A stretch of DNA of 43,107 nt, from NCBI GenBank assembly GCA_029210695.1, contig JARGFH010000007.1, positions 62,001 through 105,107 of the forward strand, read 5' to 3'. The notes beneath the pieces are model-generated. The model saw only the letters and a list, made by a program, of their open reading frames with translations. It was not told the origin of the DNA and searched no databases. This stretch comes from Acidimicrobiia bacterium. GTDB taxonomy: Bacteria > Actinomycetota > Acidimicrobiia > Spongiisociales > JAHEDJ01. Of the stretch, positions 7,915 through 24,283 are shown one piece after another. Numbering within the stretch: the first letter of the stretch is position 1; each line of letters begins with the position of its first letter. Made by a program: the position numbers and the translations under genes.

Positions 7915-7977
7915 CAGAGGACCCCGCTCGACGGAGTGATCCGGCCGGGGTGCTGTTTACGCACGTGAGGACGAATA

Positions 7978-9483
7978 TTGGCCACAGTCAGGCTCCCAAG
8001 CTCGCTCGACAAGTACGCCGGTGGGCGAAGGTCCATCGAGGTAACCGCCGCGACCGTCGACGCCGCCCTGCGGCAGGCGGTAGAGGCACATCCCGATCTC
8101 CGCATCCGGCTCTTCGATGACTCGGGAGAACTGCACCCGCATCTGATGGTGTTCTGTCGCGAGGCGGAAGTTCCCCGCCGGGACCTGGCGGCGACTGCGC
8201 TAGAGGAAGGCGATCGGGTAGATCTGCTGATCGCCATAGCCGGAGGTGCAGATGACGTTCGCATGCGAGGGTTCCGGCAGCGAGCGAGCGTCGAACAGGC
8301 GATATCGGCGGCCCTCGACGGCGTGGATCCGTTGGACGCTGAGGCCGTCGAGGTCACCGAGTGTGCCGGGAGGGTGCTGGCCGGCGACGTGCGGAGCGAG
8401 GTGAACGTGCCGGGGTTCCGCCGGGCAACGATGGATGGGTTCTCCGTTCGGGCAGCCGACACGTTCGGGGCGTCTGCGTACAACCCGGTGATCCTGAATC
8501 TGGTCGGATCTTCGATGCCGGGGGTTTCGACGACGGGCTCGATCGAGGGCGGCGCCGCCGGACGGATCATGACGGGTGCGCCGGTCCCGGACGGCGCCGA
8601 CGCGGTGTTGCGAGCTGAGGACGCCCTGGAAACCGGCGGTCGCGTCGAGGTGCGGGCTCCGGTAGCCCCAGCGAAGAACGTCGGCAGGGTCGGAGAGGAT
8701 ATCGAGACCGGGACGACCGTGTTACGCCGAGGGAGGCGTCTGCTACCCCAGGATGCGGGGTTGCTGGCGTCGATCGGACACCATCCCGTGCTGGTGCACC
8801 GGCGGCCGGTGGTGCGTGTCATCGTGTCTGGTGATGAGTTGCTGGCACCGGGTGAACGCCCTGAGGGCTCGAAGATCGTCGACAGCAACTCTCCTATGCT
8901 CGCCGCGCTGGTGATTCGCGACGGTGGTAGCCCGGAGATCGTGCGGCTCCCGGATGACGAGCAGGCGATGCGCGACGCGCTGAGCCGGCCGGGCGCCGAT
9001 GTGATCGTTACCGCCGGCGCTGCCTCGGTCGGGACGGAGGACCGGGTACCGGTGATCGTCGATGAACTGGGCGAACTCGTTGTCCACGGTGTGGCTATGC
9101 GCCCGTCCTCGCCGACCGGGGTGGGCAGGATCGCCGGTGTTCCAGTGCTTCTCCTGCCGGGCAATCCGGTGTCGTGCCTGGTTGCCTACGACTTCTTCGC
9201 CGGGCCGGTCATACGCCGGATGGGGGGATTGCCCGAGCAGTGGCCATATCTGTCCGTCCGACTGCCGCTCGAACAGCGTCTCGTGTCACAGATCGGCCGC
9301 ACTGATTACGCCAGGGTCCAGATCGAGAACGGGCGCGTTCGCCCGCTCGCCATCTCCGGTGCATCGGTTCTGTCCTCGGTAACCAGAGCTTCCGGTTTCG
9401 TGGTGGTTCCCTCCGGGCTGGAAGGATATGCGGAGGGGACCGGAGTGGAAGTTCACCTCTACGACCCGGCGCTCGTCCGATGA
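7978..9483 (+). CDS. moeA: MoaD/ThiS ubiquitin-like domain fused to molybdopterin molybdo/tungsto-transferase MoeA
   Basis: Residues 1-90 look like a beta-grasp domain ending IAIAGG. Then MoeA motifs RATMDGFSV, IMTGAPVP, SGDEL, DSN, LPGNPVS. TTG start with GAGGA RBS. Confidence 0.88.
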   Translation: MATVRLPSSLDKYAGGRRSIEVTAATVDAALRQAVEAHPDLRIRLFDDSGELHPHLMVFCREAEVPRRDLAATALEEGDRVDLLIAIAGGADDVRMRGFRQRASVEQAISAALDGVDPLDAEAVEVTECAGRVLAGDVRSEVNVPGFRRATMDGFSVRAADTFGASAYNPVILNLVGSSMPGVSTTGSIEGGAAGRIMTGAPVPDGADAVLRAEDALETGGRVEVRAPVAPAKNVGRVGEDIETGTTVLRRGRRLLPQDAGLLASIGHHPVLVHRRPVVRVIVSGDELLAPGERPEGSKIVDSNSPMLAALVIRDGGSPEIVRLPDDEQAMRDALSRPGADVIVTAGAASVGTEDRVPVIVDELGELVVHGVAMRPSSPTGVGRIAGVPVLLLPGNPVSCLVAYDFFAGPVIRRMGGLPEQWPYLSVRLPLEQRLVSQIGRTDYARVQIENGRVRPLAISGASVLSSVTRASGFVVVPSGLEGYAEGTGVEVHLYDPALVR

Positions 9484-11414
9484 GGCAGCGCCAGTTCCTC
9501 GATGTTGTCGATGAATCGGTAGCGCATCAGCGCTTCGACGATGCCTGCGCGCATCTCGAACCGCAGACGGAGACCATCCGGTTGGAGTCTGCATTGGGAC
9601 GTGTGCTGGCCGGTGACGTTGTGGCCGCGGTCGACGTCACCGCCTTCGACAGGAGCAATGTGGACGGCTACGCGGTGCGGGCGCAGGACACGTTCGGGGC
9701 CGAGGAACTTCAACCGATCACGATGGCCGTCTCAGAAGTCGCCCTCGCAGCCGGCCAGGCGCCTCCTCCCGGGTTCGAGGTCGAGCCCGGCGTGGCGGTG
9801 GCTCTTGCCACCGGCGGGGTGGTTCCGCGCGGGGCAGATGCCGTGCTGATGGTGGAGTACACCGAACCCGACGGGGAGCGAATCCGCGTCGTCCGGCCGG
9901 CGGTCCCGGGCGGGAACATCACGTTTGCAGGATCCGATATCGGTCGCGGAGAGACGGTGATGCGGCGAGGCACCCGGCTCAGTTCACGCGAGACCGGAGT
10001 GCTGGCGGCGGTTGGAGCCGACCGGCTGGACGTGGTCGCCAGGCCCCGGGTAGCGGTGGTGTCCACCGGTGATGAGATCGTTGAGCCGGGACTCATGCTC
10101 GGTGTCGGCCAGGTGTACGACTCGAACCAGCGCATGTTGCTCGACGCCGTCATCGAACTCGGATGTGAGCCGGTGCCGTGCGGGATCATCCCGGACGACG
10201 AAGCCCTCCTCGAGCGGGCTGTCGAGGGCTTGCTGTCGGGGCCGGAGGCCGTGGACGTGGTGTTGTTGTCCGGTGGAACCTCGAAAGGCGAGGGCGACCT
10301 CAACGCCACGGTCGTCGAACGGTTGGCGCTGAGCATGCCCGATTCGGCCGGGATCGTCGTGCACGGGGTCGCTCTCAAACCGGGCAAGCCCGTTCTGCTC
10401 GCCGTTGTGGGCCGAGTGCCGGTAGTCGTTCTGCCGGGCTTTCCAACCTCGGCGATTTTCACCTTTCACGAATTCGTAGCTCCGTTGCTGCGCCGCCTGT
10501 CGGGCCTTCCCCCTCACGATCGATCTCTGGTGCAGGCGATGGTTCCGTTGCGGATCACCTCTGCGTCGGGGCGAACGGAGTACAACCTGGTCGATCTGGT
10601 GCAGGGACCGGTAGGCCTGGCTGCCTATCCGCTCGGTGCAGGATCGGGCAGTGTGACGGCTTTCGGACGCGCCGACGGCTTTATCCGGATTCCCGCCGCC
10701 ATCGAGTATGTCGACGAGGGGGCCGTGGTCGATGTTCATCTCCTGCATCCGGAGGTACGTCCCGCCGACCTCGCCGCCATCGGGAGCCACTGCGTCGGTT
10801 TCGACTATCTGCTCGGGGTGCTGGCCGGGCGTGGGTATCGCGTGAAGATGGTGCCGGTCGGGTCGACGGGTGGGCTCACGGCCGTGGGCCGGGGGGAGGC
10901 CGATGTGGCCGGAATCCATCTCATGGATCCAGCGACCGGTGAGTACAACCGTCCGTTTCTGCCGCCGGGGGTGCGGCTCATGTCCGGCTACCGGCGCCGG
11001 CAGGGAATCGTGTTCCGGTCGGGTGATACGACGCTGGCGGACCTCGATGCGGAGGCCCTGGCGGCTGAACTGGGCGAGGGTCCGTTTCGAATGGTCAATC
11101 GCAACCCTGGAAGCGGGACACGGGTGCTCATCGATCAACTGCTCGGCGGGCGGCAACCTGAGGGTTACCTGCATCAGGCCAGCACCCACCACTCCGTGGC
11201 AGCCGCCGTCGAGCAGGGGAGGGCGGATTGGGGCGTGACTCTCGACACCGTGGCGGGAAGGGCCGGTCTGGAGTTCCGGTTCCTCCAGGACGAGCAGTTT
11301 GACTTTGCGGTGCCGGAATCGCGGTGGGATAGGCCCGCCATCGTGGCACTTCGGGAGTTGCTCGACGCCCCGACGATCATCGCGGAGTTGCAGGGGCTCG
11401 GCTTCCACCGCTAG
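9480..11414 (+). CDS. moeA: MoeA fused to a C-terminal PBP/LysR-substrate-binding domain
   Basis: DRSNVDGYAV, STGDE, SGGTSKG, KPGKP, LPGFPTS. C-terminal GSHC, GSTGGL, NRNPGSGTR PBP domain. ATGA overlap with the upstream gene. Confidence 0.9.
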   Translation: MRQRQFLDVVDESVAHQRFDDACAHLEPQTETIRLESALGRVLAGDVVAAVDVTAFDRSNVDGYAVRAQDTFGAEELQPITMAVSEVALAAGQAPPPGFEVEPGVAVALATGGVVPRGADAVLMVEYTEPDGERIRVVRPAVPGGNITFAGSDIGRGETVMRRGTRLSSRETGVLAAVGADRLDVVARPRVAVVSTGDEIVEPGLMLGVGQVYDSNQRMLLDAVIELGCEPVPCGIIPDDEALLERAVEGLLSGPEAVDVVLLSGGTSKGEGDLNATVVERLALSMPDSAGIVVHGVALKPGKPVLLAVVGRVPVVVLPGFPTSAIFTFHEFVAPLLRRLSGLPPHDRSLVQAMVPLRITSASGRTEYNLVDLVQGPVGLAAYPLGAGSGSVTAFGRADGFIRIPAAIEYVDEGAVVDVHLLHPEVRPADLAAIGSHCVGFDYLLGVLAGRGYRVKMVPVGSTGGLTAVGRGEADVAGIHLMDPATGEYNRPFLPPGVRLMSGYRRRQGIVFRSGDTTLADLDAEALAAELGEGPFRMVNRNPGSGTRVLIDQLLGGRQPEGYLHQASTHHSVAAAVEQGRADWGVTLDTVAGRAGLEFRFLQDEQFDFAVPESRWDRPAIVALRELLDAPTIIAELQGLGFHR

Positions 11415-11488: not shown

Positions 11489-13303
11489 CTACATGAAGCC
11501 GGCTGCTACCGCCCGCTGATCCAGAGTCTCTATCACCCGACCTCGCAACTCATCGAAGAACTCTTCGGTGTTGAACTGCGGCACAGTCGAGTGTTCGATT
11601 GGTAGGTGGGCGTCGGCAGGCATCAAGTAGTCGTCTTCTGTGAATCCGTGTTTCCGCTCGGAGGCGTAGCCGCGCAGGAATGTTCGGTCGACGGCCGCCA
11701 GCAGGTCGTCGGCCTCTACGCCGAGGCCGGTGATCAACCGAATCGCCTCCGCTTCCAGATCGGGGCCGATCATGGAGAACTTACAGAGCCCGGTGATGTC
11801 ATCGAGGATGAACCTGGGCCCCCGATTGACGGTGGCATCGATCCAGTACTCGAGGCCGGTTTCTCGCTCGACGATCGCCAGAAGGTATGTGCGCATCGAC
11901 ATGTGACCTCCGGCCAGCGCCCATGGATAGGAGGGATTGGTGTGTGGCAGATAGGCGGGGTACTCGACGCCTTTCGATTGCATGGCGAATCCTGTGGCAC
12001 CCTGGTGGATGGACAACCGCATGGAGCCTTGCCCTAACTCCGGGAACAGGCCGGTTCCGACCGCCTCGATGGCTGTCCTGGTGGCGGCCGCGTCGCCGTA
12101 GCTGAGCCCGCCGGCGATGGGGGAGTCGGGATGGCGCAGATTCCACTCCATCGCGTATCCGATGGTTCCTCCGAGCGAGATCGAATCCATGCCCAGTTCG
12201 TCGGAGAGATCGATCAAGGTCAAGGCGGCGTCGGCGTCATAGATGCCCAGGTTCGAGGTGAGTAGGGCAAGGGGCTCGTAGTCGACCTTGGCCCGGAATC
12301 TCCCGGCCTCTCCATCCGTACGGTCGTAGACGTTCTTGTGGCATTTGATGCCACAGAGGTAGCAGGCCTCCGCTTTGACGATATAGGGGCCTGCTTCGAA
12401 GGCTGGCCGGGTGAGAAGCTGACCATCTTCGTTACCCGGAGGGGCGAAGTTGAACTCGGGGAGACCGCCGGCCGGATGGAGCATCCCGACCATGCGCCAG
12501 GTACCGACGTCGCGATACCCCTTGCTCCCGTCTCCGAGGTTGATCTCCCGGTTGATGTCTTTGAGACCCCGGCTCGAAGCCTTCGGATTTGGGCCGTCGG
12601 CGGCGATCGCCAGAAGGTTTTTCGAACCCATCACGCCGCCGTATCCGCCCCTTCCGCAGAATCGGGGCTTGGCGTCCCCCGACTTCAACTGGTTGTCGGT
12701 CGACAGCGCAATCGACGCATACCGGACCGACTCGTAGTTCTCTCCGGCCGGACCGATCACGGCGAAATGCGCCTCCGGATAGCGGTTGTGGAGTTCCTGG
12801 ATCTTGTCGTTGACCGTGCGTCCGATGAGGTCATCGGCGGCCAGGAAGGTGAACTCTGCCGGGCCGCCGGGTCCTTCGGGATCGTCGGCAGGGGTCAGGC
12901 GGAGGAGGGTCGCTTGCTCGCACCGGCCGGTGAAGATGACTTCTTCGATGCCGAGGCCACGTAGTTTGGTGCCGAAGTGCCCCGATCCTGCCGACCACAT
13001 GAGACCCGGCGCACCGGCCAGCGAGGTCTTGAGCGGGGAGTAGCCGTGGAAAAAGGTCCGCAGACCCGTCATCGCCCGTGTCCCGCTCAGCAGGCCCAGG
13101 TTCATGACCAGCGGTGCGTCAGGTGCGTAGGGATCGGTGATTTCGAGATCGCCCAGCAGTTTGGTGGCGCGGGCGATTCCACCGAGGGCGTCCTCGAGAT
13201 CTTGGCAGGGGAAGGATTCGAATCTGACGGTCCGGTTCGTGAGGTCCACGTGGTAGCGATTCACGGTGAAGTCCGTAGCCGGTCGCAATGCGGTCACTTC
13301 CAC
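11489..13303 (-). CDS. Divergent aldehyde:ferredoxin oxidoreductase family protein
   Basis: YSPLKTS, IGPAGEN, GRGGYGGVMGSKNLLAI, CYLCGIKC plus GLCKF, DELGMDSIS. GTG at 13303 with GGAGG RBS 7 nt upstream. Confidence 0.85.
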   Translation of the reverse strand: MEVTALRPATDFTVNRYHVDLTNRTVRFESFPCQDLEDALGGIARATKLLGDLEITDPYAPDAPLVMNLGLLSGTRAMTGLRTFFHGYSPLKTSLAGAPGLMWSAGSGHFGTKLRGLGIEEVIFTGRCEQATLLRLTPADDPEGPGGPAEFTFLAADDLIGRTVNDKIQELHNRYPEAHFAVIGPAGENYESVRYASIALSTDNQLKSGDAKPRFCGRGGYGGVMGSKNLLAIAADGPNPKASSRGLKDINREINLGDGSKGYRDVGTWRMVGMLHPAGGLPEFNFAPPGNEDGQLLTRPAFEAGPYIVKAEACYLCGIKCHKNVYDRTDGEAGRFRAKVDYEPLALLTSNLGIYDADAALTLIDLSDELGMDSISLGGTIGYAMEWNLRHPDSPIAGGLSYGDAAATRTAIEAVGTGLFPELGQGSMRLSIHQGATGFAMQSKGVEYPAYLPHTNPSYPWALAGGHMSMRTYLLAIVERETGLEYWIDATVNRGPRFILDDITGLCKFSMIGPDLEAEAIRLITGLGVEADDLLAAVDRTFLRGYASERKHGFTEDDYLMPADAHLPIEHSTVPQFNTEEFFDELRGRVIETLDQRAVAAGFM

Positions 13304-13331
13304 GGTGAAACCTCCTCGAGATCCGTCGGCG

Positions 13332-14672
13332 TTATCCAAGCGCCTGCCCGGCGATGAACTCGTCGAGTACACCGGTCAGAGTCGGTTCGCCGATCTCCTG
13401 TAGATCGTAGAACACGCGCGTATTCGGCTTCTGGATATCGACGATGCGGGCAAGGTCGATGGGCGTTCCGATCACGACGGCGTCGCAATCCGTGGCGTTG
13501 ATCGTGGCTTCGAGATCGCGAAGCTGTTCCTCGCCGTATCCCATTGCGGGCAGGATGGTCCCGATTTCGGGGTACGTGGCGAAAGTGTCTTTGAGCTTGC
13601 CGACCAGGTAGGGGCGGGGATCGACGAATTCGATGGCACCGTATTTGGTGGCGGCGACGACGGCTGCGCCGATCTTCATGCCCCCGTGGGTGAGGGTTGG
13701 ACCGTCTTCGATCGCCAGGACGCGCTTGCCGGCAACTACCGAGGGGTCCTCCAACCGCATCGTCGAGGCTGCGTCGATGACCTTGGCGGACGGGTTCACC
13801 TTGGCGATGTTGGCCCGGACCGTTTCGATTCCGGCCAGGTCGGCGGAGTCGATCTTGTTGATGATCACGACATCGGCCGTGCGCAAGCTGACCTCGCCGG
13901 GGTAGTATCGCAACTCATGTCCCGGCCGATGCGGGTCGACGATGGTGATCGCCAGGTCGGCCTCGTAGAACGAGAAATCGTTGTTGCCACCATCCCAGAC
14001 GATCACATCGCATCCATTGGGGTCGTCTTCTGCCGCTCGGAGGATCGCCTCGTAGTCGACTCCGGCGTAGATGACGTTGCCTCGCACGATATGTGGCTCG
14101 TACTCCTCCATCTCTTCGATGGTGCAGTCGTGCTTTTCGAGGTCGGCGATCTCGGCGAAGCGCTGGACTCTCTGGGCGGTGAGATCGCCGTACGGCATCG
14201 GGTGGCGGACGGCAACGACCTTGAGGCCCCTGGCCATGAGCGTCTCGACGACCTTGCGCGAGGTCTGGGACTTGCCGGATCCGGTCCGCACCGCGCACAC
14301 AGAGATCACCGGCTTGGTGCTCTTCACCTGGGTGTCGCGCGGTCCCAGCAGAGTGAACGATGCCCCGGCGGCCTGTACGACTGCCGAGACGCCCATCACG
14401 TGCTGGTATGAAACGTCGCTGTAGGAGAAAGCACACTCGTCGACTTCGAGGTCCCGGATCAACGCGGGGAGTTGGTCTTCAGCGTAGATCGGGATTCCGT
14501 TCGGGTAGAGCGGCCCGGCCAGCTCAGGCGGATAGGTTCGGCCTTCGATGCCGGGGATCTGTTCGGCCGTGAAGGCGACCACTTCGACTGATTCGTCGTC
14601 GCGGTAGTGGGTGTTGAAGTTGTGGAAGTCGCGCCCCGCGGCGCCGATGATGATCACCTTGCGTTTGGCCAT
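13332..14672 (-). CDS. COG2403 P-loop enzyme resembling arginine synthetase ArcE (often annotated cyclic 2,3-diphosphoglycerate synthase/GTPase)
   Basis: GAAGRDFHNFN, AVRTGSGKSQTSR (P-loop), RHPMPYGDL, TIEEMEEYEP, WDGGNND, EDGPTLTHGGM, LPAMGYG; AGGAG RBS. The ArcE relationship is from my recall of the family, not an alignment. Confidence 0.82.
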   Translation of the reverse strand: MAKRKVIIIGAAGRDFHNFNTHYRDDESVEVVAFTAEQIPGIEGRTYPPELAGPLYPNGIPIYAEDQLPALIRDLEVDECAFSYSDVSYQHVMGVSAVVQAAGASFTLLGPRDTQVKSTKPVISVCAVRTGSGKSQTSRKVVETLMARGLKVVAVRHPMPYGDLTAQRVQRFAEIADLEKHDCTIEEMEEYEPHIVRGNVIYAGVDYEAILRAAEDDPNGCDVIVWDGGNNDFSFYEADLAITIVDPHRPGHELRYYPGEVSLRTADVVIINKIDSADLAGIETVRANIAKVNPSAKVIDAASTMRLEDPSVVAGKRVLAIEDGPTLTHGGMKIGAAVVAATKYGAIEFVDPRPYLVGKLKDTFATYPEIGTILPAMGYGEEQLRDLEATINATDCDAVVIGTPIDLARIVDIQKPNTRVFYDLQEIGEPTLTGVLDEFIAGQALG

Positions 14673-14701
14673 CTGGTTCTCCTGCCTCTCGTGCGTGTGC
14701 G

Positions 14702-15835
14702 CTAGTAACCCGGAATCTGGCGGGGGAAGTAGTCCTGGAGTGTGCCTTCCCGATACACATCGGCCGTTGCGCAATGGAGGCCTCCACCGAACGGTCCGAC
14801 CGCCCAGAACGGCACCTCGATCACCTCGAAGCCGAGTTCGTAGAACTGCTGCTGCTGGGCCTTCTCCGATTCCTCAACGAAGATGGTGTGCTCATCGAGG
14901 AGCAGCGTGTTCATAGACAGCCAGACGCTGCAGAAACACAGTGGAGGTTTCTCCGGCAGGGCGGGTTCGGCGCACGGAACGATCTCCCAATCGTTCATGG
15001 CGAACAGCTTCTTCATCTCTTCGGTTAGGGGCACACGTTGCCGGTTGCTGAGGGCCAGGCCCGGCCGGAGCGGTATGAACGTGGCATCGATGTGCATCGG
15101 GTGCGCCTCCCAGAAGAGCACCTCGTGGAGTCGGTGCTCCGGAAAATGCCGCCGGAGCCAATCGATACCGGCCCCGTTGGTGGCCGTTGACCGCTGTACG
15201 AACAGATCCCTGCCGAACCGTCCGACGTCGGCGGCATCGAAAAGCGGCTCTTCTTCGGTGAGGTTCCACTGCTTGTTCTTTGTGAAGCGTTCGATCTGTT
15301 CCGCGTCCGGGAGGGACTCGGCGTACTCCCAGAACTCCATGCCGTCCACGTAGGAAGCATCCGTAAGGCGCGGTTTCGGGGCGGCTTCCCACCGGAAGTC
15401 CGGATCCTCCCGGAAGTACTTCTGGAGGAGTGGACGGTAGGCGAGGTACTCGAACCAGCGAGAGCGCTGCGACATCGTGGCTTCGAGGATCTCGTTGCCG
15501 ACCGTCAAGAGGATGTCGCGGGGTGGCATCACGCCGAACATGGAGTCCTGGGTCCAGTCGGGCGTGGTGACTGCCTGAGAGAAGTCGAGAACTTCCGGTC
15601 GGTCGACCGCTACACCATGCTTCTCCAGGAGAGCAACGAAGTTGTCCAGTTGCGCGTTGGCGGCGTCCTCCATCTCCTGCGGAAGCCGGCCGTAGGTGCC
15701 CTTCGGAAAACCCCACTTCGGCCAGTCACGGACTGTGGCAGGTTCGGGCGCCTGCACCATGGTGCCATCGGCGCGGCCGACGATGACCCGCTTGAGCGGG
15801 TCCCACTCGGTCCACGAGTTCACGATCTTTGCCAC
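14702..15835 (-). CDS. Amidinotransferase (glycine/inosamine-phosphate amidinotransferase family), copy 1
   Basis: VNSWTEWDPLKRVIVG, PRDILLTVGNEILEA, and the Asp-His-Cys triad in FDAAD, MHID, GGGLHC. GTG start with GAGGAGG RBS. Confidence 0.9.
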   Translation of the reverse strand: MAKIVNSWTEWDPLKRVIVGRADGTMVQAPEPATVRDWPKWGFPKGTYGRLPQEMEDAANAQLDNFVALLEKHGVAVDRPEVLDFSQAVTTPDWTQDSMFGVMPPRDILLTVGNEILEATMSQRSRWFEYLAYRPLLQKYFREDPDFRWEAAPKPRLTDASYVDGMEFWEYAESLPDAEQIERFTKNKQWNLTEEEPLFDAADVGRFGRDLFVQRSTATNGAGIDWLRRHFPEHRLHEVLFWEAHPMHIDATFIPLRPGLALSNRQRVPLTEEMKKLFAMNDWEIVPCAEPALPEKPPLCFCSVWLSMNTLLLDEHTIFVEESEKAQQQQFYELGFEVIEVPFWAVGPFGGGLHCATADVYREGTLQDYFPRQIPGY

Positions 15836-15896
15836 CGCGCCTCCTCGTTCGAGTTCCTCCGGCTCCGGCGTTGCCGGGCCCGGCTGCATGCGATAG

Positions 15897-15920
15897 ACTA
15901 CCTATCAATCGATAGGTAGT
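15897..15920. promoter_or_regulatory. Palindromic operator, site 1 (CCTATC-N4-GATAGG)
   Basis: ACTACCTATC-aatc-GATAGGTAGT, perfect 10-bp arms, between divergent amidinotransferase and transaminase genes. Confidence 0.85.
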
Positions 15921-15942: not shown

Positions 15943-17157
15943 ATGCCCAGCTCGTTCTTGCATCCGTTCACGCCACCTCGAAAGACGGAGTTCATCTCGA
16001 TCACCGGTGGTAAGGGCGCCGTCGTTTTTGATGACCAGGGAAACGAGTACATCGACGGAATGGGCTCGTTGTGGTACGCCAACGTTGGCTACGGCCGGGA
16101 AGAAATCGCCGAGGCGATCGCCGACCAGGCGAAGAAGCTAGGCGCCTATCACACCTTCGACCCGTTCACGAACCCGCAAACCGAGGAACTCGCCGCCAAG
16201 GTCGTCGAGCTGTCGCCGTTCGACAACGCTCGGGTATTCCTGGGTTCGTCTGGATCCGAGGCCGTCGACACGGCCATGAAACTCGCCCGCATCGCCCAGC
16301 GCGAGTCGGGCCATCCTCAGAAGCAGATCATCGTGAGCCGTGAGCGCGGGTACCACGGCACCAACTACGGCGGAACCTCGGTGCAGGGCATTGCTCCCAA
16401 CCGCGAAGGGTTTGGGCCGCTGGTGCCGGGCATCATCAACGTGGTCGCCGACGACGATGAAGCGATGAAGAAGATCTTTGCCGAGCACGGTGACGAAATC
16501 GCGGCGGTGATCACCGAGCCGATCCAGGGAGCGGGCGGGGTGTGGCCACCCCCCGAGGGCTATCTGTCGCATCTGCGCGATCTCTGCGACACCTACGGGG
16601 CCTTTCTCATCCATGATGAAGTCATCACCGGATTCGGGCGCACCGGGAAGTGGTTCGGCAGCCAGTTCTACGGGGTAACACCCGACATGATCACGTTCGC
16701 CAAAGGTGTGACCTCGGGCTACGTGCCGCTGTCAGGGGTGATCGTCGGCCCTGCCGTTCTGGCCGGGCTCGAAGCAAACGACGGCTTCATCCTACGGACG
16801 GGCTACACATATTCTGGGCACCCGCTGGGTTGTGTCGCCGCGCTGAAGTGCATCGAGATTCAAGAGCGGGAAGGCCTGTTGGCCAGGGCGACCGAGATCG
16901 GGAAGCGCCTGTCCGCCGGGCTCAACACCTTGCGCGATGAAGGGTTGCTGAGCGATGTGCGCGGCGAGGGAGCCGTTTGGGGAATCTCCGTACCGGACGG
17001 CGTCAACGTCGTGGCGGTGCGTGACGCTCTTCTGAAGAAGGGCGTGATCATCCGCCCGATTCCACCGAACCATCTCACGATGTGCCCGCCGCTCGTCATC
17101 ACCGACGACCAGATCGACACGATCGTCTCTTCCCTGCGGAGTGTGTTGAAGGGGTAG
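15943..17157 (+). CDS. Class III PLP aminotransferase (omega-amine/polyamine:pyruvate type)
   Basis: YIDGMGSLW, SGSEAVDTAMK, YHG, EPIQGAGG, DEVITGFGRTG, FAKGVTSGY, GYTYSGHP; AGGAGG RBS. Confidence 0.92.
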   Translation: MPSSFLHPFTPPRKTEFISITGGKGAVVFDDQGNEYIDGMGSLWYANVGYGREEIAEAIADQAKKLGAYHTFDPFTNPQTEELAAKVVELSPFDNARVFLGSSGSEAVDTAMKLARIAQRESGHPQKQIIVSRERGYHGTNYGGTSVQGIAPNREGFGPLVPGIINVVADDDEAMKKIFAEHGDEIAAVITEPIQGAGGVWPPPEGYLSHLRDLCDTYGAFLIHDEVITGFGRTGKWFGSQFYGVTPDMITFAKGVTSGYVPLSGVIVGPAVLAGLEANDGFILRTGYTYSGHPLGCVAALKCIEIQEREGLLARATEIGKRLSAGLNTLRDEGLLSDVRGEGAVWGISVPDGVNVVAVRDALLKKGVIIRPIPPNHLTMCPPLVITDDQIDTIVSSLRSVLKG

Positions 17158-17224: not shown

Positions 17225-18346
17225 ATGCTTGTTGGGGCGCCGAAAGAGATCAAGAAGGCAGAACGACGCGTCGGCCTGACGCCGTCGAGTGTGAGAGAAC
17301 TGGTGGCTCACGGTCACGAGGTTCTGGTCGAGACGGCTGCCGGAGCCGGTATCGGCGCTTCGGACGAGGACTACGTATCGGCCGGTGCTCGCATCGCCGC
17401 GACTGCGGTGGAGGTGTGGGATCAGGCGGAGATGATCGTCAAGGTCAAGGAACCGCAGGCAGTCGAGCGGGCCCAGCTCAGCGAAGATCAGGTGCTGTTC
17501 ACCTACCTCCATCTCGCTCCCGATCCCGACCAAACGAGAGACCTCGTCGACGGAGGTGCAACCTGCATAGCCTACGAGACGGTGACCGATCGCAATGGCG
17601 GCCTGCCGCTGCTTGCTCCGATGTCTCAGGTCGCAGGTCGTATGTCGATTCAGGCAGGCGCCCACTGCCTCGAGGCTCCCAGTGGTGGGGCAGGGCTCCT
17701 GCTGGGTGGCGTACCGGGTGTCCACTCGGCGAAGGTAGTGGTGATCGGTGGGGGTGTCGTCGGCGAGCATGCGATCGAGATGGCAGTCGGCCTCGGCGCG
17801 TTTGTCACCGTGCTGGATCGCGACATTGGCGTTCTGGATCGTCTCGCCAGGCGCTTCGGCACTCTGCTGGAGACCGTTTACTCGACCGCGTCGGCCCTCG
17901 AGGAACTGGTGCTCGACGCCGACCTCGTCATCGGGGCCGTCCTGGTCAAGGGTGATCGAGCCCCTCGCCTCGTGACGGCCGAAATGGTCAAGGCGATGCG
18001 CCCGGGTTCCGTCCTGGTGGATGTGGCGATCGATCAGGGCGGCTGTTTTGAGACCTCACGCCCGACCACACATGAGGAGCCAACGTACATCGTCGACGGC
18101 GTTGTGCATTACTGCGTAGCCAACATGCCTGGCGCCGTGCCACGTACGTCCACCTACGCGCTCAACAACGCCACGCTTCCATTCGCACTGGCGCTGGCCG
18201 ACAAGGGCGCCAAACAGGCGATGCTCGATGATGTTCACCTCCTGGGCGGCCTCAACGTGTGCAGAGGACAAGTAACGGAAGAGCACGTCGCCAGAGAACT
18301 CGGTTATGAGTACGTGGAAGCGGCGGAGGCACTGAGGGCCTGCTGA
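17225..18346 (+). CDS. ald: Alanine dehydrogenase
   Basis: [54 protein letters not shown]. Confidence 0.95.
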
Positions 18347-18398
18347 TGCACGGTCATCAATTCTCTCACCGGTCATGGCTCGTGCGACGGTGGCCGCG

Positions 18399-19268
18399 AT
18401 GAGCGTAGCTCCGGGCGAGTTTGCCTGGCCGGCCGGGTACCGTTCGGCCGTCGCGCTGACGTTCGATCTTGATGCCGAGTCGGTCGTGCTGGCGGTTGAT
18501 CGGTCGTATGCCTCCCGCCCTTCGGTGATGACGCATCAAGCATACGGACCTTTGACTGGACTACCGCGGTTGCTCGAGGTGCTTGGTGGGGAGGCGTTGC
18601 ATGCCACGTTCTTCATTCCCGGGTTCACGGCCGACCGATATCCCGGCGCCGTTGCCGCGGTCCTCGAGGCAGGACACGAGGTGGCTCATCACGGGTATCT
18701 GCACCGTCCACCTGCACATCTTCTCGTGGAAGAGGAGCGAGCGGAGCTGGAGCGTGGGCTCGAGGCTCTTGGGAAACACGGGGTGCGGCCCGCCGGGTTC
18801 CGTGCGCCCTGGTGGGAGACGTCTGCCGACACACTCGGCCTGCTGGCGGAGTTCGGATTCGAATACGATGCCAGCCTGTTTGATCGCGATACCCCCTACC
18901 CGGTGGCGACGGATCAGGGCGTGATCGTGGAGATACCGCAGTCGTGGGCATTCGACGATTGGGAACGATATGCCTATCTGCCGGACCCTCCGGCCGGTCA
19001 AGGGGTGATCGAGCGTCCCTCCGACGTCATGGAAACCTGGTGGCAAGACATCTTGGCCTACCGGGAGTACGGCGGTTGCGCCGTCCCGGTGATGCACCCC
19101 TTTCTGTCGGGGCGACCGGCCCGGGCGCTGGCGCTGGCAGGGTTGCTTGAACGCCTGGCTTCACTGCCGGATGTGTGGGTGACCACGTTGGGGGAGATTG
19201 CCTCTCACACTTCCGACCTGGGGATGGAGGCCGCCCCGCTCGATCTTCCTGACCTCGACGGCGTCTGA
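18399..19268 (+). CDS. Polysaccharide deacetylase/PuuE-like (CE4) metal-dependent hydrolase
   Basis: LTFDLDAE, YG, ATFFIPG, EVAHHGYLH, GFRAPWW, YDAS, MHPFLSGRP. Start at 18375 or 18399. Confidence 0.85.
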   Translation: MSVAPGEFAWPAGYRSAVALTFDLDAESVVLAVDRSYASRPSVMTHQAYGPLTGLPRLLEVLGGEALHATFFIPGFTADRYPGAVAAVLEAGHEVAHHGYLHRPPAHLLVEEERAELERGLEALGKHGVRPAGFRAPWWETSADTLGLLAEFGFEYDASLFDRDTPYPVATDQGVIVEIPQSWAFDDWERYAYLPDPPAGQGVIERPSDVMETWWQDILAYREYGGCAVPVMHPFLSGRPARALALAGLLERLASLPDVWVTTLGEIASHTSDLGMEAAPLDLPDLDGV

Positions 19269-19271: not shown

Positions 19272-20327
19272 CTACGACTCGAGGAGCACGAAGTCGTCGA
19301 GGTCGGCGCTGACACGCACTATCTGATCGACGGCCAGAGCCGGTTTGGCGGGCGAGTTGAGGATCAGTTCCGCATGTCCCAGCGCAATTCTGCACCGCTG
19401 GTGAGCCCCGATGAAGTGGCGGTCGACGACCCGGCCCTCTCCGAGCTGAAATCCTCCCGTTTCGTCTGCCCGGAGGTGCTCGGGACGAATCGCCAGCGTG
19501 ACCGAAGCGTCCCGGCTTGCCCGGCCGGGCACCGAGAACGTCCCGAACGCGGTTCCCACCTCGACCGTTCCGCCGGCGGTGTCCCTCACCGTTCCATCGA
19601 CCAGGTTGCTGTCACCCATGAACGTTGCGGCGAAGCGTGTTGATGGGCGGAGGTACAGGCGGTCCGGGGGTCCGTGATCTTCGATCCGGCCGTCGCGGAG
19701 CACCACGATGGTGTCTGCAAGACTCATGGCCTCCTCTTGATCGTGGGTCACGTGGACGAAGGTGGTTCCTAGCCGTCTCTGGATTTCGCTCAGCTCATCC
19801 TGCATCTGACGTCGGAGCTTGAGGTCGAGGGCGCCCAATGGTTCATCGAGAAGCAACACCCGGGGTTCGATGACCACCGCCCGGCCGAGTGCGATTCGTT
19901 GTCGCTGTCCGCCGGACAGTGAGGCGATATGGCGATCGCCGATGCCTGGTAGACCGACCAGCTCCAGAGCAGTTTCAACGCGCCGGCGGCGTTCGTCACC
20001 CTTTATGCCATGCATGGCGAGGCCGAAGCCGATGTTCTTGGCGACGGTCATGTGCGGGAACAGGGCGTAGTCCTGAAAGACCGTGGTGGTGGGTCGCCGG
20101 ACCGGCGGGAGGTCGGTCACATCGCTGTCGTCGATGTGTATACGCCCCTCCGTGGGCTCCGTGAAGCCGCCCAGAATGCTCAGCAGCGTCGTCTTGCCGC
20201 TGCCGGACGGACCCAGGATGACCACATAGGAACCCGGCTCAACCACGAGATTCACGTCATCGAGCGCGGCGGTATCACCGTAGCGCTTCGTGACACCGTC
20301 GATAGTGAGCCGTGCGCCGCGCGTCAT
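19272..20327 (-). CDS. PotA-like ABC transporter ATP-binding protein
   Basis: GPSGSGKT, VFQDYALFPH, LSGGQRQR, LLLDEPL, C-terminal TOBE region (IRPEH). Confidence 0.93.
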   Translation of the reverse strand: MTRGARLTIDGVTKRYGDTAALDDVNLVVEPGSYVVILGPSGSGKTTLLSILGGFTEPTEGRIHIDDSDVTDLPPVRRPTTTVFQDYALFPHMTVAKNIGFGLAMHGIKGDERRRRVETALELVGLPGIGDRHIASLSGGQRQRIALGRAVVIEPRVLLLDEPLGALDLKLRRQMQDELSEIQRRLGTTFVHVTHDQEEAMSLADTIVVLRDGRIEDHGPPDRLYLRPSTRFAATFMGDSNLVDGTVRDTAGGTVEVGTAFGTFSVPGRASRDASVTLAIRPEHLRADETGGFQLGEGRVVDRHFIGAHQRCRIALGHAELILNSPAKPALAVDQIVRVSADLDDFVLLES

Positions 20328-21112
20328 CGCTGTTTCTCCAGTCTTCGTCTGATGAGGGCATAGGTGATGATGAGCATGCCGATCGACAGGGCGAACACGA
20401 TCGTGCCTGCTGCGTTGGTCTTTGGATTGAGCCCGGTCCGCAGGGCCGACCAGATCTCAACCGGGAGCGTCACATCGAACCGGGTGAGCAGTAGAGCGAT
20501 GACGAACTCGTCCCAGGAAAGCGTGAAGGACAGCAGGAAGGCAGCGAGCAACCCGGGCGCGAGCAATGGGACGGCTACTAGCGCGAGAACCCGTGACTCC
20601 CGGGCCCCGAGATCACGGGCGGCCTGCTCGAAGCGCGCTTGTTGCTCGTTCATCTGACTCAGGATGATGGCGAAGGCGAGGGGAAGATTGATCACCACAT
20701 GGCCGATCGTGACCGTGATCAGCGATCTCCCGATTGCGAGCTCGCTGAAGGCGAGGGACAGGCCGAGTCCTATGACGAGATAGGAGACACCGAGAGGTGC
20801 AATCAAGAACGCCCGGAGTGCCTGGACTCCTTTGGGACGGAATCTGGCCAGGCCGTAGGCAGCGAGGAACCCGAGCACTGTGCAGATCAATGCTGAGGTT
20901 ATGGCGACCAGCGCCGAGTTGCGCAACGCCGCCATCATCCGCCCATCGGCGAACAAGGCCTCATACCAGCGCAAGGACAGGCCGCGGAGTGGAGGAACGG
21001 CTAACGCCCCGTCCTGGAAGGAGAAGAGCACGAGTGCCAGCACGGGCAGAAGGATGAAACCGAATACGGCAGCGAGGTATGAGTAGCGGATCACACCGCC
21101 GATCCGTTTCAT
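20324..21112 (-). CDS. PotC-like ABC permease
   Basis: Hydrophobic; EAA-like loop EQAARDLGA; FTLSWDEF. Confidence 0.9.
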   Translation of the reverse strand: MKRIGGVIRYSYLAAVFGFILLPVLALVLFSFQDGALAVPPLRGLSLRWYEALFADGRMMAALRNSALVAITSALICTVLGFLAAYGLARFRPKGVQALRAFLIAPLGVSYLVIGLGLSLAFSELAIGRSLITVTIGHVVINLPLAFAIILSQMNEQQARFEQAARDLGARESRVLALVAVPLLAPGLLAAFLLSFTLSWDEFVIALLLTRFDVTLPVEIWSALRTGLNPKTNAAGTIVFALSIGMLIITYALIRRRLEKQR

Positions 21113-21984
21113 TCCTGCTCCAGCGTGAGCCGCTTGGCCGAGGCGGCATAGACCACGATGACGACAACGAGGAGAACAACGCTGAGCGCCGCAGCCAGCG
21201 GAAAGTCTCCCCGCCGCTGCACCTGGAGCATGATCGCCTGGGGGAGCAGCAGCTCCTGGCCACCACCGAGGATCTGCGGAGTGATGAAGTCACCGATGGC
21301 GAGGACGAAGGTGAGGAAGGCACCGACGACAACACCGGGCATGCTGAGCGGGAGCGTCACCCGAAGGAAAGTCAAGAAAGACGAGGCGCCGAGGTCCCTC
21401 GCTGCCTTCCGGTACGACTCGGGTATCTGGGTCAGGCTGGCATAGATCGTGAGGGAGGTGAGCATCGTGAAGAAGTGCACGAATCCGACCACGGTTGCCA
21501 GCCGTGTGTTGGACAGTGTGATCGGCGACGAGATCAATCCGGTGGATGTCATCAGTTCGTTGACGACACCGTTCTTGCCCAGAACCAACAGCCAGCTGTA
21601 AGAGCGGACCACGTAGGAGGTCCAGAACGGGAGCACGGCGAGCAGCAGGAGCGGGCGTTGCCAGCGCGGAGGCACGCGATACGCCAGGATGTAGGCGAAC
21701 GGATAGGCCACGAGAATGCTGAAAACGACTGTGATGGCCACGACCTCGAGCGAATTCCGCAACGCGTCGAAGAACACCGGTTCGTCGATGATCCTCCGGT
21801 AGTTGTACAAGCTGGGCGAAGTGTCGATCGTGCCGCCGACTCTTCGAAAGAGGCTGTAGGCGACCACCAACCCCATCGGAGCGAGGAAGAAGAGACTCGT
21901 CCAGAGAAGGGCTGGACCCGCCAGGGTCCAACCCTTCCTCGAAGATGTCTGGGCTGCCGTCAACCCTGCAGGAACCTTGTCCAC
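21109..21984 (-). CDS. PotB-like ABC permease
   Basis: AYPFAY, LPFWTSYVVRSYSW, AARDLGA, TLPLSMPG. Confidence 0.9.
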   Translation of the reverse strand: MDKVPAGLTAAQTSSRKGWTLAGPALLWTSLFFLAPMGLVVAYSLFRRVGGTIDTSPSLYNYRRIIDEPVFFDALRNSLEVVAITVVFSILVAYPFAYILAYRVPPRWQRPLLLLAVLPFWTSYVVRSYSWLLVLGKNGVVNELMTSTGLISSPITLSNTRLATVVGFVHFFTMLTSLTIYASLTQIPESYRKAARDLGASSFLTFLRVTLPLSMPGVVVGAFLTFVLAIGDFITPQILGGGQELLLPQAIMLQVQRRGDFPLAAALSVVLLVVVIVVYAASAKRLTLEQE

Positions 21985-23063: not shown

Positions 23064-23099
23064 CTTCTCTTTCTCCTGATGGGAATTGGGCTGTGAGCT

Positions 23100-23115
23100 C
23101 CTATCGGTCGATAGG
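23100..23115. promoter_or_regulatory. Palindromic operator, site 2
   Basis: CCTATC-ggtc-GATAGG between the divergent SBP and agmatinase genes. Confidence 0.8.
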
Positions 23116-24267: not shown

Positions 24268-24283
24268 CCTATCGATTGATAGC
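24268..24283. promoter_or_regulatory. Palindromic operator, site 3
   Basis: CCTATC-gatt-GATAGC upstream of TetR gene 1. Confidence 0.75.

What the first reader, a model, noticed from the sequence alone, without database searches (positions are those of the whole stretch)
11489..15920. Amidinotransferase - ArcE-like synthetase - AOR operon: candidate ATP-conserving amidino shuttle for guanidino-compound catabolism
Seen: three co-oriented genes with 29- and 28-bp gaps behind the strongest copy of the region's operator. Established: amidinotransferases reversibly move an amidino group between arginine/ornithine and another amine, and are known mostly from biosynthesis (creatine, streptomycin, cyanotoxins). 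Arginine synthetase ArcE of Thermococcus kodakarensis (COG2403-type) reversibly converts Arg+ADP+Pi to citrulline+NH3+ATP, and to my knowledge is usually linked to ornithine carbamoyltransferase and carbamate kinase. Neither of those is in this window. Inference: the amidinotransferase runs catabolically, loading amidino groups from non-arginine guanidines (agmatine, guanidinoacetate, guanidinobutyrate, taurocyamine) onto ornithine. ArcE then pulls the reaction and makes ATP, while the freed amine is transaminated by the divergent class III enzyme and the aldehyde is oxidised by the AOR. Alternatively the ArcE homolog acts directly on a non-arginine guanidine. I know of no described pathway with this arrangement.
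Basis: partly seen in the sequence, partly recalled or inferred. Interest (0 to 1): 0.9.

Follow-up and report, generated by a model that had tools for sequence, protein, structure and literature searches.

The report
Amidinotransferase coupled to arginine synthetase
An Acidimicrobiia-type bacterium places an enzyme that moves guanidino groups onto ornithine directly in front of the recently discovered ATP-making arginine deiminating enzyme, which suggests, but does not prove, a new energy-conserving way to break down guanidino compounds other than arginine.

Summary
Three co-oriented minus-strand genes (amidinotransferase AT1, ArcE-like, divergent AOR) have 29- and 28-nt gaps and lie behind a perfect 10+4+10 palindrome.

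The palindrome core recurs 6 times in the window against about 1 expected. It marks a TetR regulon of guanidino/polyamine catabolic genes.

AT1 is a true AGAT-family enzyme with its catalytic residues intact. The ArcE-like protein is not a cDPG synthase. It is 66-85% identical to homologues from many phyla that sit beside carbamate kinase, OTC, pyrBI or argS.

An amidinotransferase is adjacent to ArcE in 3 of 80 other loci:
- two Chloroflexota strings that also hold carbamate kinase, one of them also OTC;
- one string with GABA-transaminase-like and succinate-semialdehyde-dehydrogenase-like genes.

In the nearest relative, ArcE-AOR and OTC carry the same operator but no amidinotransferase.

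The AOR's role, the substrate and the direction are inferred. TK2200 itself could not be compared. No paper in the library joins the two enzymes.

The parts
15897..15920 (.). Operator: perfect inverted repeat ACTACCTATC-N4-GATAGGTAGT between AT1 and the divergent aminotransferase
   Evidence: Read. The core motif occurs 6 times against about 1 expected. The same core sits in front of ArcE and of OTC in L001.
14702..15835 (-). AT1, AGAT-family amidinotransferase (377 aa, GTG start)
   Evidence: phmmer against the PDB: human AGAT 1jdw E 6.5e-78, SxtG 7e-69, HsvA 6e-67, StrB1 9e-52. The Pfam ADI match is only 21.1 bits, below the 22.8 cut-off. The positions aligned to AGAT D170, D254, H303, D305 and C407 are invariant in 7 of 7 aligned relatives.
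13332..14672 (-). ArcE-like P-loop protein (446 aa), candidate arginine synthetase
   Evidence: No Pfam or NCBIfam family reaches its cut-off. cDPG synthetase 9sxb matches at only E 0.002 over about 100 residues. Identity is 66-85% to 80 genome loci from many phyla. Those homologues lie beside carbamate kinase (8 of 80), OTC-like genes (7 of 80), pyrB (18 of 80) and argS (15 of 80). A carbamate kinase-ArcE fusion, P0125, exists.
11489..13303 (-). AOR2, divergent member of the aldehyde:ferredoxin oxidoreductase family (604 aa)
   Evidence: Pfam AFOR_N 3.7e-36 and AFOR_C 4.3e-40. P. furiosus AOR 1aor matches at only E 3.5e-26, with the CxxCxxxC motif kept. A 64% identical orthologue lies directly after ArcE in L001.
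15943..17157 (+). AmT3a, class III (omega-type) aminotransferase, divergent from AT1
   Evidence: Pfam Aminotran_3 3.2e-96. All NCBIfam matches are below their cut-offs; the best are PRK07481 and PRK07036. The start was read.
17225..18346 (+). Alanine dehydrogenase
   Evidence: TIGR00518 at 512.6 bits, above the 391.85 cut-off. An 81% identical orthologue lies divergent from ArcE in L001.
18375..19268 (+). Polysaccharide-deacetylase-fold hydrolase, specificity unknown
   Evidence: Pfam Polysacc_deac_1 1.1e-13. The best NCBIfam match, the PuuE domain, scores 68 bits, far below its cut-off.
19272..23282 (-). PotABCD-type ABC importer (ATPase, two permeases, binding protein). Operator copy at 23100-23115 in the divergent region shared with the agmatinase-family gene.
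   Evidence: Pfam; weak match to PotD; operator.
23127..24227 (+). Agmatinase/ureohydrolase-family enzyme (guanidino-compound hydrolase)
   Evidence: Pfam Arginase 2.6e-85. TIGR01230 at 198.5 bits, above the 174.3 cut-off.
24276..24977 (+). TetR1 regulator, with an operator copy at 24268-24283 at its 5' end
   Evidence: Pfam TetR_N; operator. A 65% identical orthologue lies divergent from OTC in L001.
25008..28893 (-). Amidase - fused urease gamma/beta - urease alpha operon, with an operator copy at 28905-28920 upstream
   Evidence: Pfam; operator.
28935..29606 (-). TetR2 regulator, divergent from AT2; operator copy at 29671-29686
   Evidence: TetR_N lies at residues 412-458 of the over-long ORF. 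The start was read. Operator.
29718..30851 (+). AT2, second amidinotransferase (377 aa), 50% identical to AT1
   Evidence: tblastn with the L018 amidinotransferase; BLASTP against AT1 E 5e-132; catalytic columns kept.
30898..35879 (+). Genes after AT2: class III aminotransferase AmT3b (30898-32307), Amidohydro_3 protein (32291-33937), agmatine-deiminase-like (33880-34941), N-carbamoylputrescine-amidase-like (34899-35879)
   Evidence: Pfam. NCBIfam: PRK07036 at 674 bits, above its 618 cut-off; the aguA-like and aguB-like matches are below their cut-offs.
5956..11414 (+). Canonical AOR1 followed by two MoeA genes, the second fused to a PBP-like domain. Convergent with AOR2. Likely pterin-cofactor supply.
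   Evidence: Pfam. AOR1 against 1aor E 2.4e-105. The MoeA pair is also next to AOR2 in L001.

Best explanation
AT1 and the ArcE-like protein form a catabolic funnel. A guanidino compound other than arginine is imported. It is most likely an omega-guanidino acid or amine such as 4-guanidinobutyrate; the substrate is inferred.

Proposed steps:
1. AT1 transfers the amidino group to ornithine, giving arginine and the free amine.
2. ArcE converts arginine, ADP and phosphate into citrulline, ammonia and ATP.
3. An ornithine carbamoyltransferase encoded elsewhere regenerates ornithine and makes carbamoyl phosphate. Carbamate kinase can turn that into a second ATP. Ornithine therefore acts as a catalytic carrier.
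4. The freed amine is transaminated by the divergent class III aminotransferase, with alanine dehydrogenase recycling pyruvate. The aldehyde is then oxidised, possibly by AOR2.

A TetR-type repressor binding the CCTATC-N4-GATAGG palindrome controls the set, together with an importer, a ureohydrolase, an amidase-urease operon and a second amidinotransferase operon.

Shown: gene identities, spacing, the operator copies, and recurrence of the pairing in other genomes. Inferred: direction of flux, substrate, co-transcription, the role of AOR2, and the presence of OTC and carbamate kinase in this genome.
For: 1. AT1 is AGAT-like, with the catalytic Cys/His/Asp and both guanidino-binding Asp positions kept.
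2. Human AGAT interconverts arginine/ornithine with GABA, beta-alanine and taurine derivatives (PMC9772407, abstract and passages).
3. TK2200 ArcE did not accept D-arginine, agmatine, guanidine or Arg dipeptides (PMC11032458, section 9 passages). Other guanidines can therefore reach it only after conversion to L-arginine.
4. An amidinotransferase is adjacent to ArcE in 3 of 80 loci:
   - L018: ArcE-AT-Na+/solute symporter-carbamate kinase.
   - L056: ArcE-AT-carbamate kinase-HAD-OTC.
   - L002: GntR-SSADH-like-GABA-transaminase-like-IlvD-family-AT-ArcE.
5. The gene order differs (AT then ArcE, or ArcE then AT) and so does the amidinotransferase subtype. AT1 and L002 share HPMHIDA and keep the Arg aligned to AGAT R322. 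AT2 and L018 share PWHIDV and lack that Arg.
6. ArcE homologues 69-73% identical to this one lie in OTC-carbamate kinase-ArcE strings (L033, L013).
7. In the nearest relative, L001, perfect operator copies precede both ArcE-AOR2 and OTC-transporter, with the TetR1 orthologue beside OTC.
8. Amidinotransferase plus class III aminotransferase recurs three times: AT1/AmT3a, AT2/AmT3b, and L002.
9. Five coincidences of source and longest-contig length occur between the top-120 lists for ArcE and for AT1 (11577, 39997, 9729, 19186, 9006). This suggests further contigs carry both genes.
Against: - 77 of 80 ArcE loci have no amidinotransferase. Of the four other Actinomycetota-type loci (L001, L004, L010, L074), none has one.
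- L001 keeps operator-ArcE-AOR2 without an amidinotransferase or aminotransferase. ArcE and AOR2 therefore work without AT1.
- No OTC or carbamate kinase is in the window, and the rest of the genome could not be read.
- In L056 the amidinotransferase has two frameshifts and the carbamate kinase is interrupted. These may be errors or decay.
- The L002 gabD-like and gabT-like ORFs are truncated.
- The same regulon holds hydrolytic routes (ureohydrolase, urease, agmatine-deiminase-like), so an ATP-conserving route is not required.
- The 80 loci are only the best of at least 595, so the frequency in the whole family is unknown.
- TK2200 itself was not compared.
Confidence: 0.5

Rival explanations
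1. Neighbours without coupling. ArcE (with AOR2, alanine dehydrogenase and OTC) is this lineage's arginine-catabolic set. An independent module, AT1-operator-aminotransferase, landed in its promoter region. The two share a regulator but not a pathway.
For: L001 has the same operator, ArcE-AOR2, alanine dehydrogenase, the MoeA genes and TetR-OTC, but no amidinotransferase or aminotransferase. 77 of 80 loci lack an amidinotransferase.
Against: The pairing recurs in two gene orders and with two amidinotransferase subtypes in other phyla. In L018 and L056 the amidinotransferase sits between ArcE and carbamate kinase. AGAT-type enzymes use arginine/ornithine as one substrate pair by definition, so the two share a metabolite.
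Confidence: 0.2
2. Biosynthetic direction. The amidinotransferase makes a guanidino product from arginine, such as an osmolyte, phosphagen-like compound or secondary-metabolite precursor. ArcE runs as a synthetase, re-making arginine from citrulline, ammonia and ATP.
For: Characterised amidinotransferases are biosynthetic: AGAT, StrB1, SxtG and HsvA are the PDB relatives. ArcE is reversible and supports arginine synthesis in vivo (PMC11032458, abstract).
Against: The neighbours are catabolic or import genes: urease, amidase, ureohydrolase, omega-transaminases, alanine dehydrogenase, ABC importer and Na+/solute symporter, and carbamate kinase. The L002 string holds gabT-like and gabD-like genes. 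No biosynthetic tailoring genes were seen.
Confidence: 0.1
3. Indirect arginase. AT1 and AT2 take the amidino group from arginine to a carrier amine. The ureohydrolase-family enzyme cleaves that product to urea and the carrier, and urease finishes the job. ArcE is a parallel, separate arginine outlet.
For: An agmatinase-family enzyme and urease lie in the same operator-marked set. Amidinotransfer is freely reversible (established enzymology of AGAT; recalled).
Against: It does not explain why the amidinotransferase lies between ArcE and carbamate kinase in Chloroflexota loci that show no ureohydrolase or urease in the stretch read. It also wastes the ATP that ArcE could conserve.
Confidence: 0.1
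4. The ArcE homologue itself deiminates a non-arginine guanidine, with ATP formation.
For: No substrate-binding residues of ArcE are known. No structure of it was found among PDB sequences or in 19 papers since 2024 that contain the term (search listing only). Specificity therefore cannot be read from the sequence.
Against: Identity is 66-85% to homologues linked to OTC, carbamate kinase, pyrBI and argS, and the protein sits on a short branch nested among them. TK2200 is strictly L-arginine specific.
Confidence: 0.05

Closest known systems
Arginine synthetase pathway (ArcE-ArcB-ArcC) of Thermococcus kodakarensis (PMC11032458; PMC13260591)
   Same: It uses an ArcE-family P-loop protein. Close bacterial homologues lie in strings with OTC and carbamate kinase. 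In the nearest relative, OTC carries the same operator as ArcE.
   Different: Here an amidinotransferase is the first gene of the unit, and OTC and carbamate kinase are not in the window. The proposed input is a non-arginine guanidine. Neither paper mentions an amidinotransferase partner: the term has 0 occurrences in the main text of PMC11032458, and it occurs once in the SI, as creatine biosynthesis. For PMC13260591 I saw only passages, and no paper in the library holds both terms.
L-arginine:glycine amidinotransferase family (AGAT/GATM, StrB1, SxtG, HsvA, CyrA, AmtA)
   Same: Same fold family, with the catalytic residues conserved. Human AGAT also handles GABA, beta-alanine and taurine (PMC9772407).
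   Different: The known members act in biosynthesis. The context here is catabolic and the proposed direction is reversed (guanidine to ornithine). The position aligned to AGAT N300 is His in AT1 and in 5 of the 6 relatives aligned with it; it is Gln in AT2.
Agmatine deiminase pathway (AguA, putrescine carbamoyltransferase, carbamate kinase) and the arginine deiminase pathway
   Same: They gain ATP from a guanidino group through a carbamoyl intermediate and carbamate kinase.
   Different: In those pathways each guanidine needs its own deiminase, and the deimination step is hydrolytic, with no ATP. Here one transferase would feed different guanidines into a single deimination step that does conserve ATP.
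Hydrolytic guanidino-acid routes (guanidinobutyrase/guanidinopropionase with urease; Pseudomonas GbuA/GpuA, cited in PMC12623156)
   Same: Same class of substrates. A ureohydrolase-family gene and urease lie in the same regulon.
   Different: Those routes release urea and conserve no energy. They use no amidinotransferase.
Cyclic 2,3-diphosphoglycerate synthetase (the name NCBI gives many homologues)
   Same: Distantly related P-loop fold. The ArcE authors used these proteins as the outgroup (SI legend to Fig. S10).
   Different: The match to the solved cDPGS 9sxb is only E 0.002 over about 100 residues. The database name is therefore not a function call.

Membership tests
AGAT-type amidinotransferase (AT1) | Significant full-length similarity to characterised amidinotransferases | tested here: met
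   AGAT E 6.5e-78 over residues 5-370; SxtG, HsvA and StrB1 also match.
AGAT-type amidinotransferase (AT1) | Catalytic Cys407/His303/Asp254 and guanidino-binding Asp170/Asp305 (residue roles recalled from the AGAT structure papers) | tested here: met
   All five aligned positions are identical in AT1 and invariant in 7 of 7 aligned relatives.
AGAT-type amidinotransferase (AT1) | Pfam PF02274 gathering score | tested here: not met
   21.1 bits against a cut-off of 22.8, matching the C-terminal part only. The model is built around arginine deiminases, and several close homologues do carry PF02274. I do not read this as exclusion from the amidinotransferase branch.
AGAT-type amidinotransferase (AT1) | Amidino transfer between arginine/ornithine and a second amine | not testable with these tools
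   Needs an enzyme assay.
Arginine synthetase ArcE | Homology to TK2200 at the authors' threshold (BLASTP E < 1e-100; SI legend to Fig. S10) | not testable with these tools
Indirect link: 48% identity and E 9.6e-127 to P0126. Named relatives of P0126 come from Desulfurococcales and from Aenigmarchaeota, Woesearchaeota, Bathyarchaeota and Nanoarchaeota MAGs. The paper lists Desulfurococcales, Bacillus, Clostridium and Actinomycetota as ArcE holders.
Arginine synthetase ArcE | Distinct from cDPG synthetase | tested here: met
   9sxb matches at E 0.002 in a partial stretch.
Arginine synthetase ArcE | P-loop nucleotide site (LpxK-like core, per PMC11032458 section 8) | tested here: met
   GSGKS is read in the translation. 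Weak Pfam matches to cobW, LpxK and MobB fall over that region.
Arginine synthetase ArcE | Genomic link to arcB and/or arcC | tested here: inconclusive
   Not in this window. Present for close homologues: carbamate kinase in 8 of 80 loci, OTC-like genes in 7 of 80, and a carbamate kinase-ArcE fusion. OTC carries the same operator in L001.
Arginine synthetase ArcE | ATP formation from L-arginine, ADP and phosphate | not testable with these tools
   Needs an enzyme assay.
Aldehyde:ferredoxin oxidoreductase family (AOR2) | AFOR_N and AFOR_C domains above the Pfam cut-offs | tested here: met
   125.2 and 138.5 bits.
Aldehyde:ferredoxin oxidoreductase family (AOR2) | [4Fe-4S] cysteine ligands and the pterin-binding DxxGxD motif (ligand numbering recalled) | tested here: inconclusive
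   CxxCxxxC and DELGMD align with 1aor. The fourth Cys is probably the one in GLCKF, but HMMER aligned that stretch differently.
Aldehyde:ferredoxin oxidoreductase family (AOR2) | Membership of a characterised subfamily (AOR, FOR, GAPOR, WOR5, BamB) | tested here: not met
   The best PDB E-value is 3.5e-26, against 2.4e-105 for AOR1 in the same window. The NCBIfam AOR equivalog scores 43.6 bits against a cut-off of 868.

The most novel reading that the evidence does not exclude
Amidinotransferases act as general adaptors in catabolism. They load amidino groups from many guanidino compounds onto a catalytic carrier amine whose guanidino form has a dedicated deiminating enzyme.

With ornithine as carrier (AT1, or the L018-type enzyme, plus ArcE, OTC and carbamate kinase), the result is a urea cycle run in reverse. 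It yields up to two ATP per guanidino group.

The AT2 operon, with agmatine-deiminase-like and N-carbamoylputrescine-amidase-like genes, would be the hydrolytic twin, using putrescine as carrier.

This would be a new mode of substrate-level phosphorylation on phosphagen-type and plant or animal guanidines. It would occur in Acidimicrobiia, Chloroflexota and an Acidobacteriota-labelled MAG.
Probability: 0.3. Interest if true: 0.85.

Novelty: new variant of a known kind. Interest (0 to 1): 0.66.

Why it matters
Arginine synthetase was described only in 2024, and its known role is arginine breakdown and carbamoyl-phosphate supply. Suppose a transferase widens its input to guanidinobutyrate, guanidinopropionate, guanidinoacetate, taurocyamine or agmatine. 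Guanidino compounds would then become fermentable, ATP-yielding substrates rather than only nitrogen sources released as urea.

This would also give amidinotransferases their first catabolic role. It would explain orphan 'glycine amidinotransferase' genes, which are common in metagenomes: at least 120 clusters are 70% or more identical to AT1.

The proposal can be tested directly with two purified proteins.

Tried and rejected
- Direct comparison with TK2200 failed. A search from the archaeal-type representative P0126 gave no Thermococcus entry. Short N- and C-terminal motifs translated from the paper's cloning primers matched none of 389 stored proteins.
- Rfam found no riboswitch, guanidine classes included, at gathering thresholds in the window.
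- The sigma-70 promoter scan gave 0 sites and the terminator scan gave nothing useful.
- The ESM Atlas returned only the family's own clusters, with the usual GTPase and cDPGS names.
- The idea that this ArcE is a diverged paralogue with a new substrate was rejected on the tree and on identity.
- The ORFs L002 7049-8713 (-) and 11583-13145 (+) were dropped. They are antisense artefacts of an IlvD-family gene and an acyl-CoA dehydrogenase gene.
- The 614-aa ORF 28935-30779 (-) was split. Only its last 223 codons are TetR2; the rest is antisense to AT2.
- No complex prediction was run, because no physical binding is claimed.

Full report
**What is there**

The window has 61-67% G+C. The closest named relatives of its proteins are from Acidimicrobiia MAGs.

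On the minus strand lie three genes:
- AT1, 15835-14702;
- an ArcE-like gene, 14672-13332;
- AOR2, 13303-11489.

Each gene has a Shine-Dalgarno-like GGAGG or GAGGAGG in front of it. The GTG start of AT1 is preferred over the upstream ATG because close homologues are 377-387 aa.

Sixty-one nucleotides upstream of AT1 lies a perfect palindrome, ACTACCTATC-N4-GATAGGTAGT (15897-15920). A class III aminotransferase, an alanine dehydrogenase and a deacetylase-fold hydrolase follow divergently.

**The operator defines a regulon**

The core CCTATC-N4-GATAGG occurs six times at up to two mismatches, against 1.04 expected; 0 of 100 shuffles reached six. Five copies lie in promoter regions:
- AT1 / aminotransferase (15901);
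- PotD-type importer / agmatinase-family gene (23100);
- TetR1 (24268);
- the amidase-urease operon (28905);
- TetR2 / AT2 (29671).

The sixth (20769) is inside a permease gene and may be chance.

The finding is therefore one arm of a larger TetR-controlled island for guanidino and polyamine-type compounds. No riboswitch was found.

**AT1**

AT1 matches human arginine:glycine amidinotransferase at E 6.5e-78. It also matches SxtG, HsvA and StrB1. The positions aligned to the AGAT catalytic triad and to both guanidino-binding aspartates are identical, and they are invariant in seven aligned relatives. The residue roles are recalled from the AGAT structural literature.

Pfam's ADI model misses its cut-off by 1.7 bits. 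I treat this as a weakness of the model, not as exclusion.

Human AGAT is known to make guanidinobutyrate, guanidinopropionate and taurocyamine from GABA, beta-alanine and taurine (PMC9772407, abstract and passages). omega-Guanidino acids are therefore chemically reasonable donors in the reverse direction.

**The ArcE-like protein**

It has no Pfam or NCBIfam family. It matches the solved cDPG synthetase only at E 0.002 over about 100 residues. The database name 'cyclic 2,3-diphosphoglycerate synthase' is therefore not a function call.

The family is large and unusually conserved:
- 3762 representatives at E <= 0.001.
- At least 595 loci in the species genome set. The best 80 are 66-85% identical to this protein although they come from many different groups, among them Bacteroidota, Bacillota, Chloroflexota, Acidobacteriota and delta-, alpha- and gammaproteobacterial MAGs.

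Among those 80 loci:
- carbamate kinase lies nearby in 8;
- OTC-like genes in 7;
- pyrB in 18, with pyrI in 15;
- a divergent arginyl-tRNA synthetase gene in 15.

L033 and L013 show OTC-carbamate kinase-ArcE strings. One representative, P0125, is a carbamate kinase-ArcE fusion.

On a tree of 93 sequences the window's protein sits on a short branch inside this bacterial clade.

All this fits the published ArcE family, which the authors report in Bacillus, Clostridium, Actinomycetota and many others (PMC11032458, Discussion passages). I could not obtain TK2200 itself, so direct membership by their E < 1e-100 criterion is untested.

**Is the pairing conserved?**

An amidinotransferase lies next to ArcE in 3 of the 80 loci.
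- L018 (Dehalococcoidales MAG): ArcE, amidinotransferase, Na+/solute symporter, carbamate kinase.
- L056 (Chloroflexota MAG): ArcE, amidinotransferase, carbamate kinase, a HAD hydrolase, OTC. The amidinotransferase has two frameshifts and the kinase is interrupted.
- L002 (labelled Holophagae): GntR regulator, succinate-semialdehyde-dehydrogenase-like, GABA-transaminase-like, IlvD-family dehydratase, amidinotransferase (84-85% identical to AT1), ArcE (80% identical), all on one strand. The first two ORFs are truncated, probably by frameshifts.

The gene order is AT then ArcE in the window and L002. It is ArcE then AT in the Chloroflexota. The Chloroflexota enzymes share motifs with the window's second amidinotransferase rather than with AT1. 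The association therefore arose, or was kept, in at least two forms.

Five coincidences of contig length and source between the top-120 lists for ArcE and for AT1 hint at more co-located pairs among close relatives. This is indirect.

Against a general link:
- 77 of 80 loci lack an amidinotransferase.
- The other Actinomycetota-type loci (L001, L004, L010, L074) lack one.
- Only the best 80 loci were seen.

**The nearest relative**

L001 (Acidimicrobiia; ArcE 85% identical) has alanine dehydrogenase, then the operator, then ArcE-AOR2, followed by the two MoeA genes. It has no amidinotransferase and no aminotransferase.

A second perfect operator copy lies between the TetR1 orthologue and an OTC gene (381.6 bits, cut-off 306). 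A transporter follows the OTC gene.

Two points follow:
- ArcE and OTC are co-regulated in this lineage. This supports a real arginine synthetase pathway and makes an OTC elsewhere in the source genome likely.
- AT1-operator-aminotransferase behaves as a module that is present in the window and absent in L001. This links AT1 more closely to the aminotransferase than to AOR2.

Amidinotransferase plus class III aminotransferase recurs with AT2/AmT3b and in L002.

**AOR2**

AOR2 belongs to the AOR family but is far from all characterised members: E 3.5e-26 to 1aor, against 2.4e-105 for AOR1 in the same window. It keeps the CxxCxxxC and DELGxD motifs.

Its pairing with ArcE is seen only in the window and L001. 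L002 has an NAD(P)-type aldehyde dehydrogenase in the corresponding cluster.

AOR2's substrate is open. This is the weakest part of the model.

**Mechanism favoured**

TK2200 ArcE accepted only L-arginine. It did not accept D-arginine, agmatine, guanidine or Arg dipeptides. The reaction lies modestly towards citrulline and ATP (abstract).

An amidinotransferase is the simplest way to bring other guanidines to such an enzyme, with ornithine recycled by OTC. The L002 context points to 4-guanidinobutyrate giving GABA, then succinate semialdehyde, then succinate. The window's pyruvate-type transaminase candidates and its alanine dehydrogenase fit any omega-amine.

I put this reading at about 0.5. 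The rivals are coincidental neighbourhood, biosynthetic direction, an indirect arginase, and a changed ArcE specificity. They are listed with their tests.

**Second amidinotransferase**

AT2 (29718-30851) is 50% identical to AT1. It heads an operon with:
- a PRK07036-type aminotransferase, above its cut-off;
- an amidohydrolase;
- agmatine-deiminase-like and N-carbamoylputrescine-amidase-like genes, both below their cut-offs.

By analogy it could use putrescine/agmatine as the carrier pair. This is speculation. It does show that linkage between an amidinotransferase and a deiminating enzyme occurs twice in one regulon.

**Novelty**

No paper in the searched library contains both 'arginine synthetase' and 'amidinotransferase'. 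Searches joining amidinotransferase with carbamate kinase/OTC, with guanidino catabolism, or with guanidinobutyrate gave no listing that describes a catabolic amidinotransferase route. I judged this from titles and abstract starts in the listings (15 of 333, 20 of 53 and 6 of 7 papers shown) and from passages of two of those papers.

The 19 papers since 2024 that hold 'arginine synthetase' include only the two Atomi-group enzyme papers as relevant work (search listing only). Subscription-only papers were not searched.

I rate this a new variant of a known kind: the arginine synthetase pathway with a transferase front end. Interest is 0.66. The hypothesis is specific, supported across phyla and cheap to test, but it rests on gene context alone.

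Noticed in passing
window 29718-35879 (+): A second amidinotransferase, AT2, is 50% identical to AT1. It lies behind its own operator copy and a divergent TetR2. It is followed by a class III aminotransferase, an Amidohydro_3 protein, and agmatine-deiminase-like and N-carbamoylputrescine-amidase-like genes.
   Followed up: partly
window 15901, 20769, 23100, 24268, 28905, 29671; L001 9930 and 19082: CCTATC-N4-GATAGG operator copies define a TetR regulon spanning about 20 kb. In the relative L001 the same motif precedes ArcE-AOR2 and an OTC-transporter pair.
   Followed up: yes
window 25008-28893 (-): An amidase-signature gene is followed by a fused urease gamma/beta gene and a urease alpha gene. 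No urease accessory genes (ureDEFG) appear anywhere in the 43 kb. Whether this is a true urease is open.
   Followed up: no
window 5956-11414 (+): A canonical AOR is followed by two MoeA genes, the second fused to a PBP-like (possibly oxyanion-binding) domain. The cluster is convergent with AOR2. The MoeA pair is kept next to AOR2 in L001.
   Followed up: partly
loci L008, L015, L017, L034, L035, L039, L040, L042, L044, L049, L051, L060, L065, L066, L070, L072, L076, L078: In Bacteroidales-type genomes the ArcE homologue lies directly upstream of pyrB (18 of 80 loci; pyrI follows in 15), and in 15 of the 80 loci overall it is divergent from argS. This fits the 2026 report that the pathway supplies carbamoyl phosphate for pyrimidines in T. 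kodakarensis, but in bacteria.
   Followed up: partly
protein P0125 (766 aa); protein P0247 (806 aa): P0125 is a natural fusion of carbamate kinase with an ArcE homologue. P0247 is an ArcE homologue interrupted by an intein with a LAGLIDADG domain.
   Followed up: partly
L056 3432-5583: The amidinotransferase (two frameshifts) and the carbamate kinase (in-frame stop) are both disrupted in this Chloroflexota MAG. The cause may be assembly error or decay of the cluster.
   Followed up: partly
window 3-5474: An unrelated catabolic cluster: FAA-hydrolase family, 6PGDH-type NAD-binding dehydrogenase, RraA-like aldolase, HMGL-like lyase, GntR/FCD regulator, and a 334-aa ORF with no family match.
   Followed up: no
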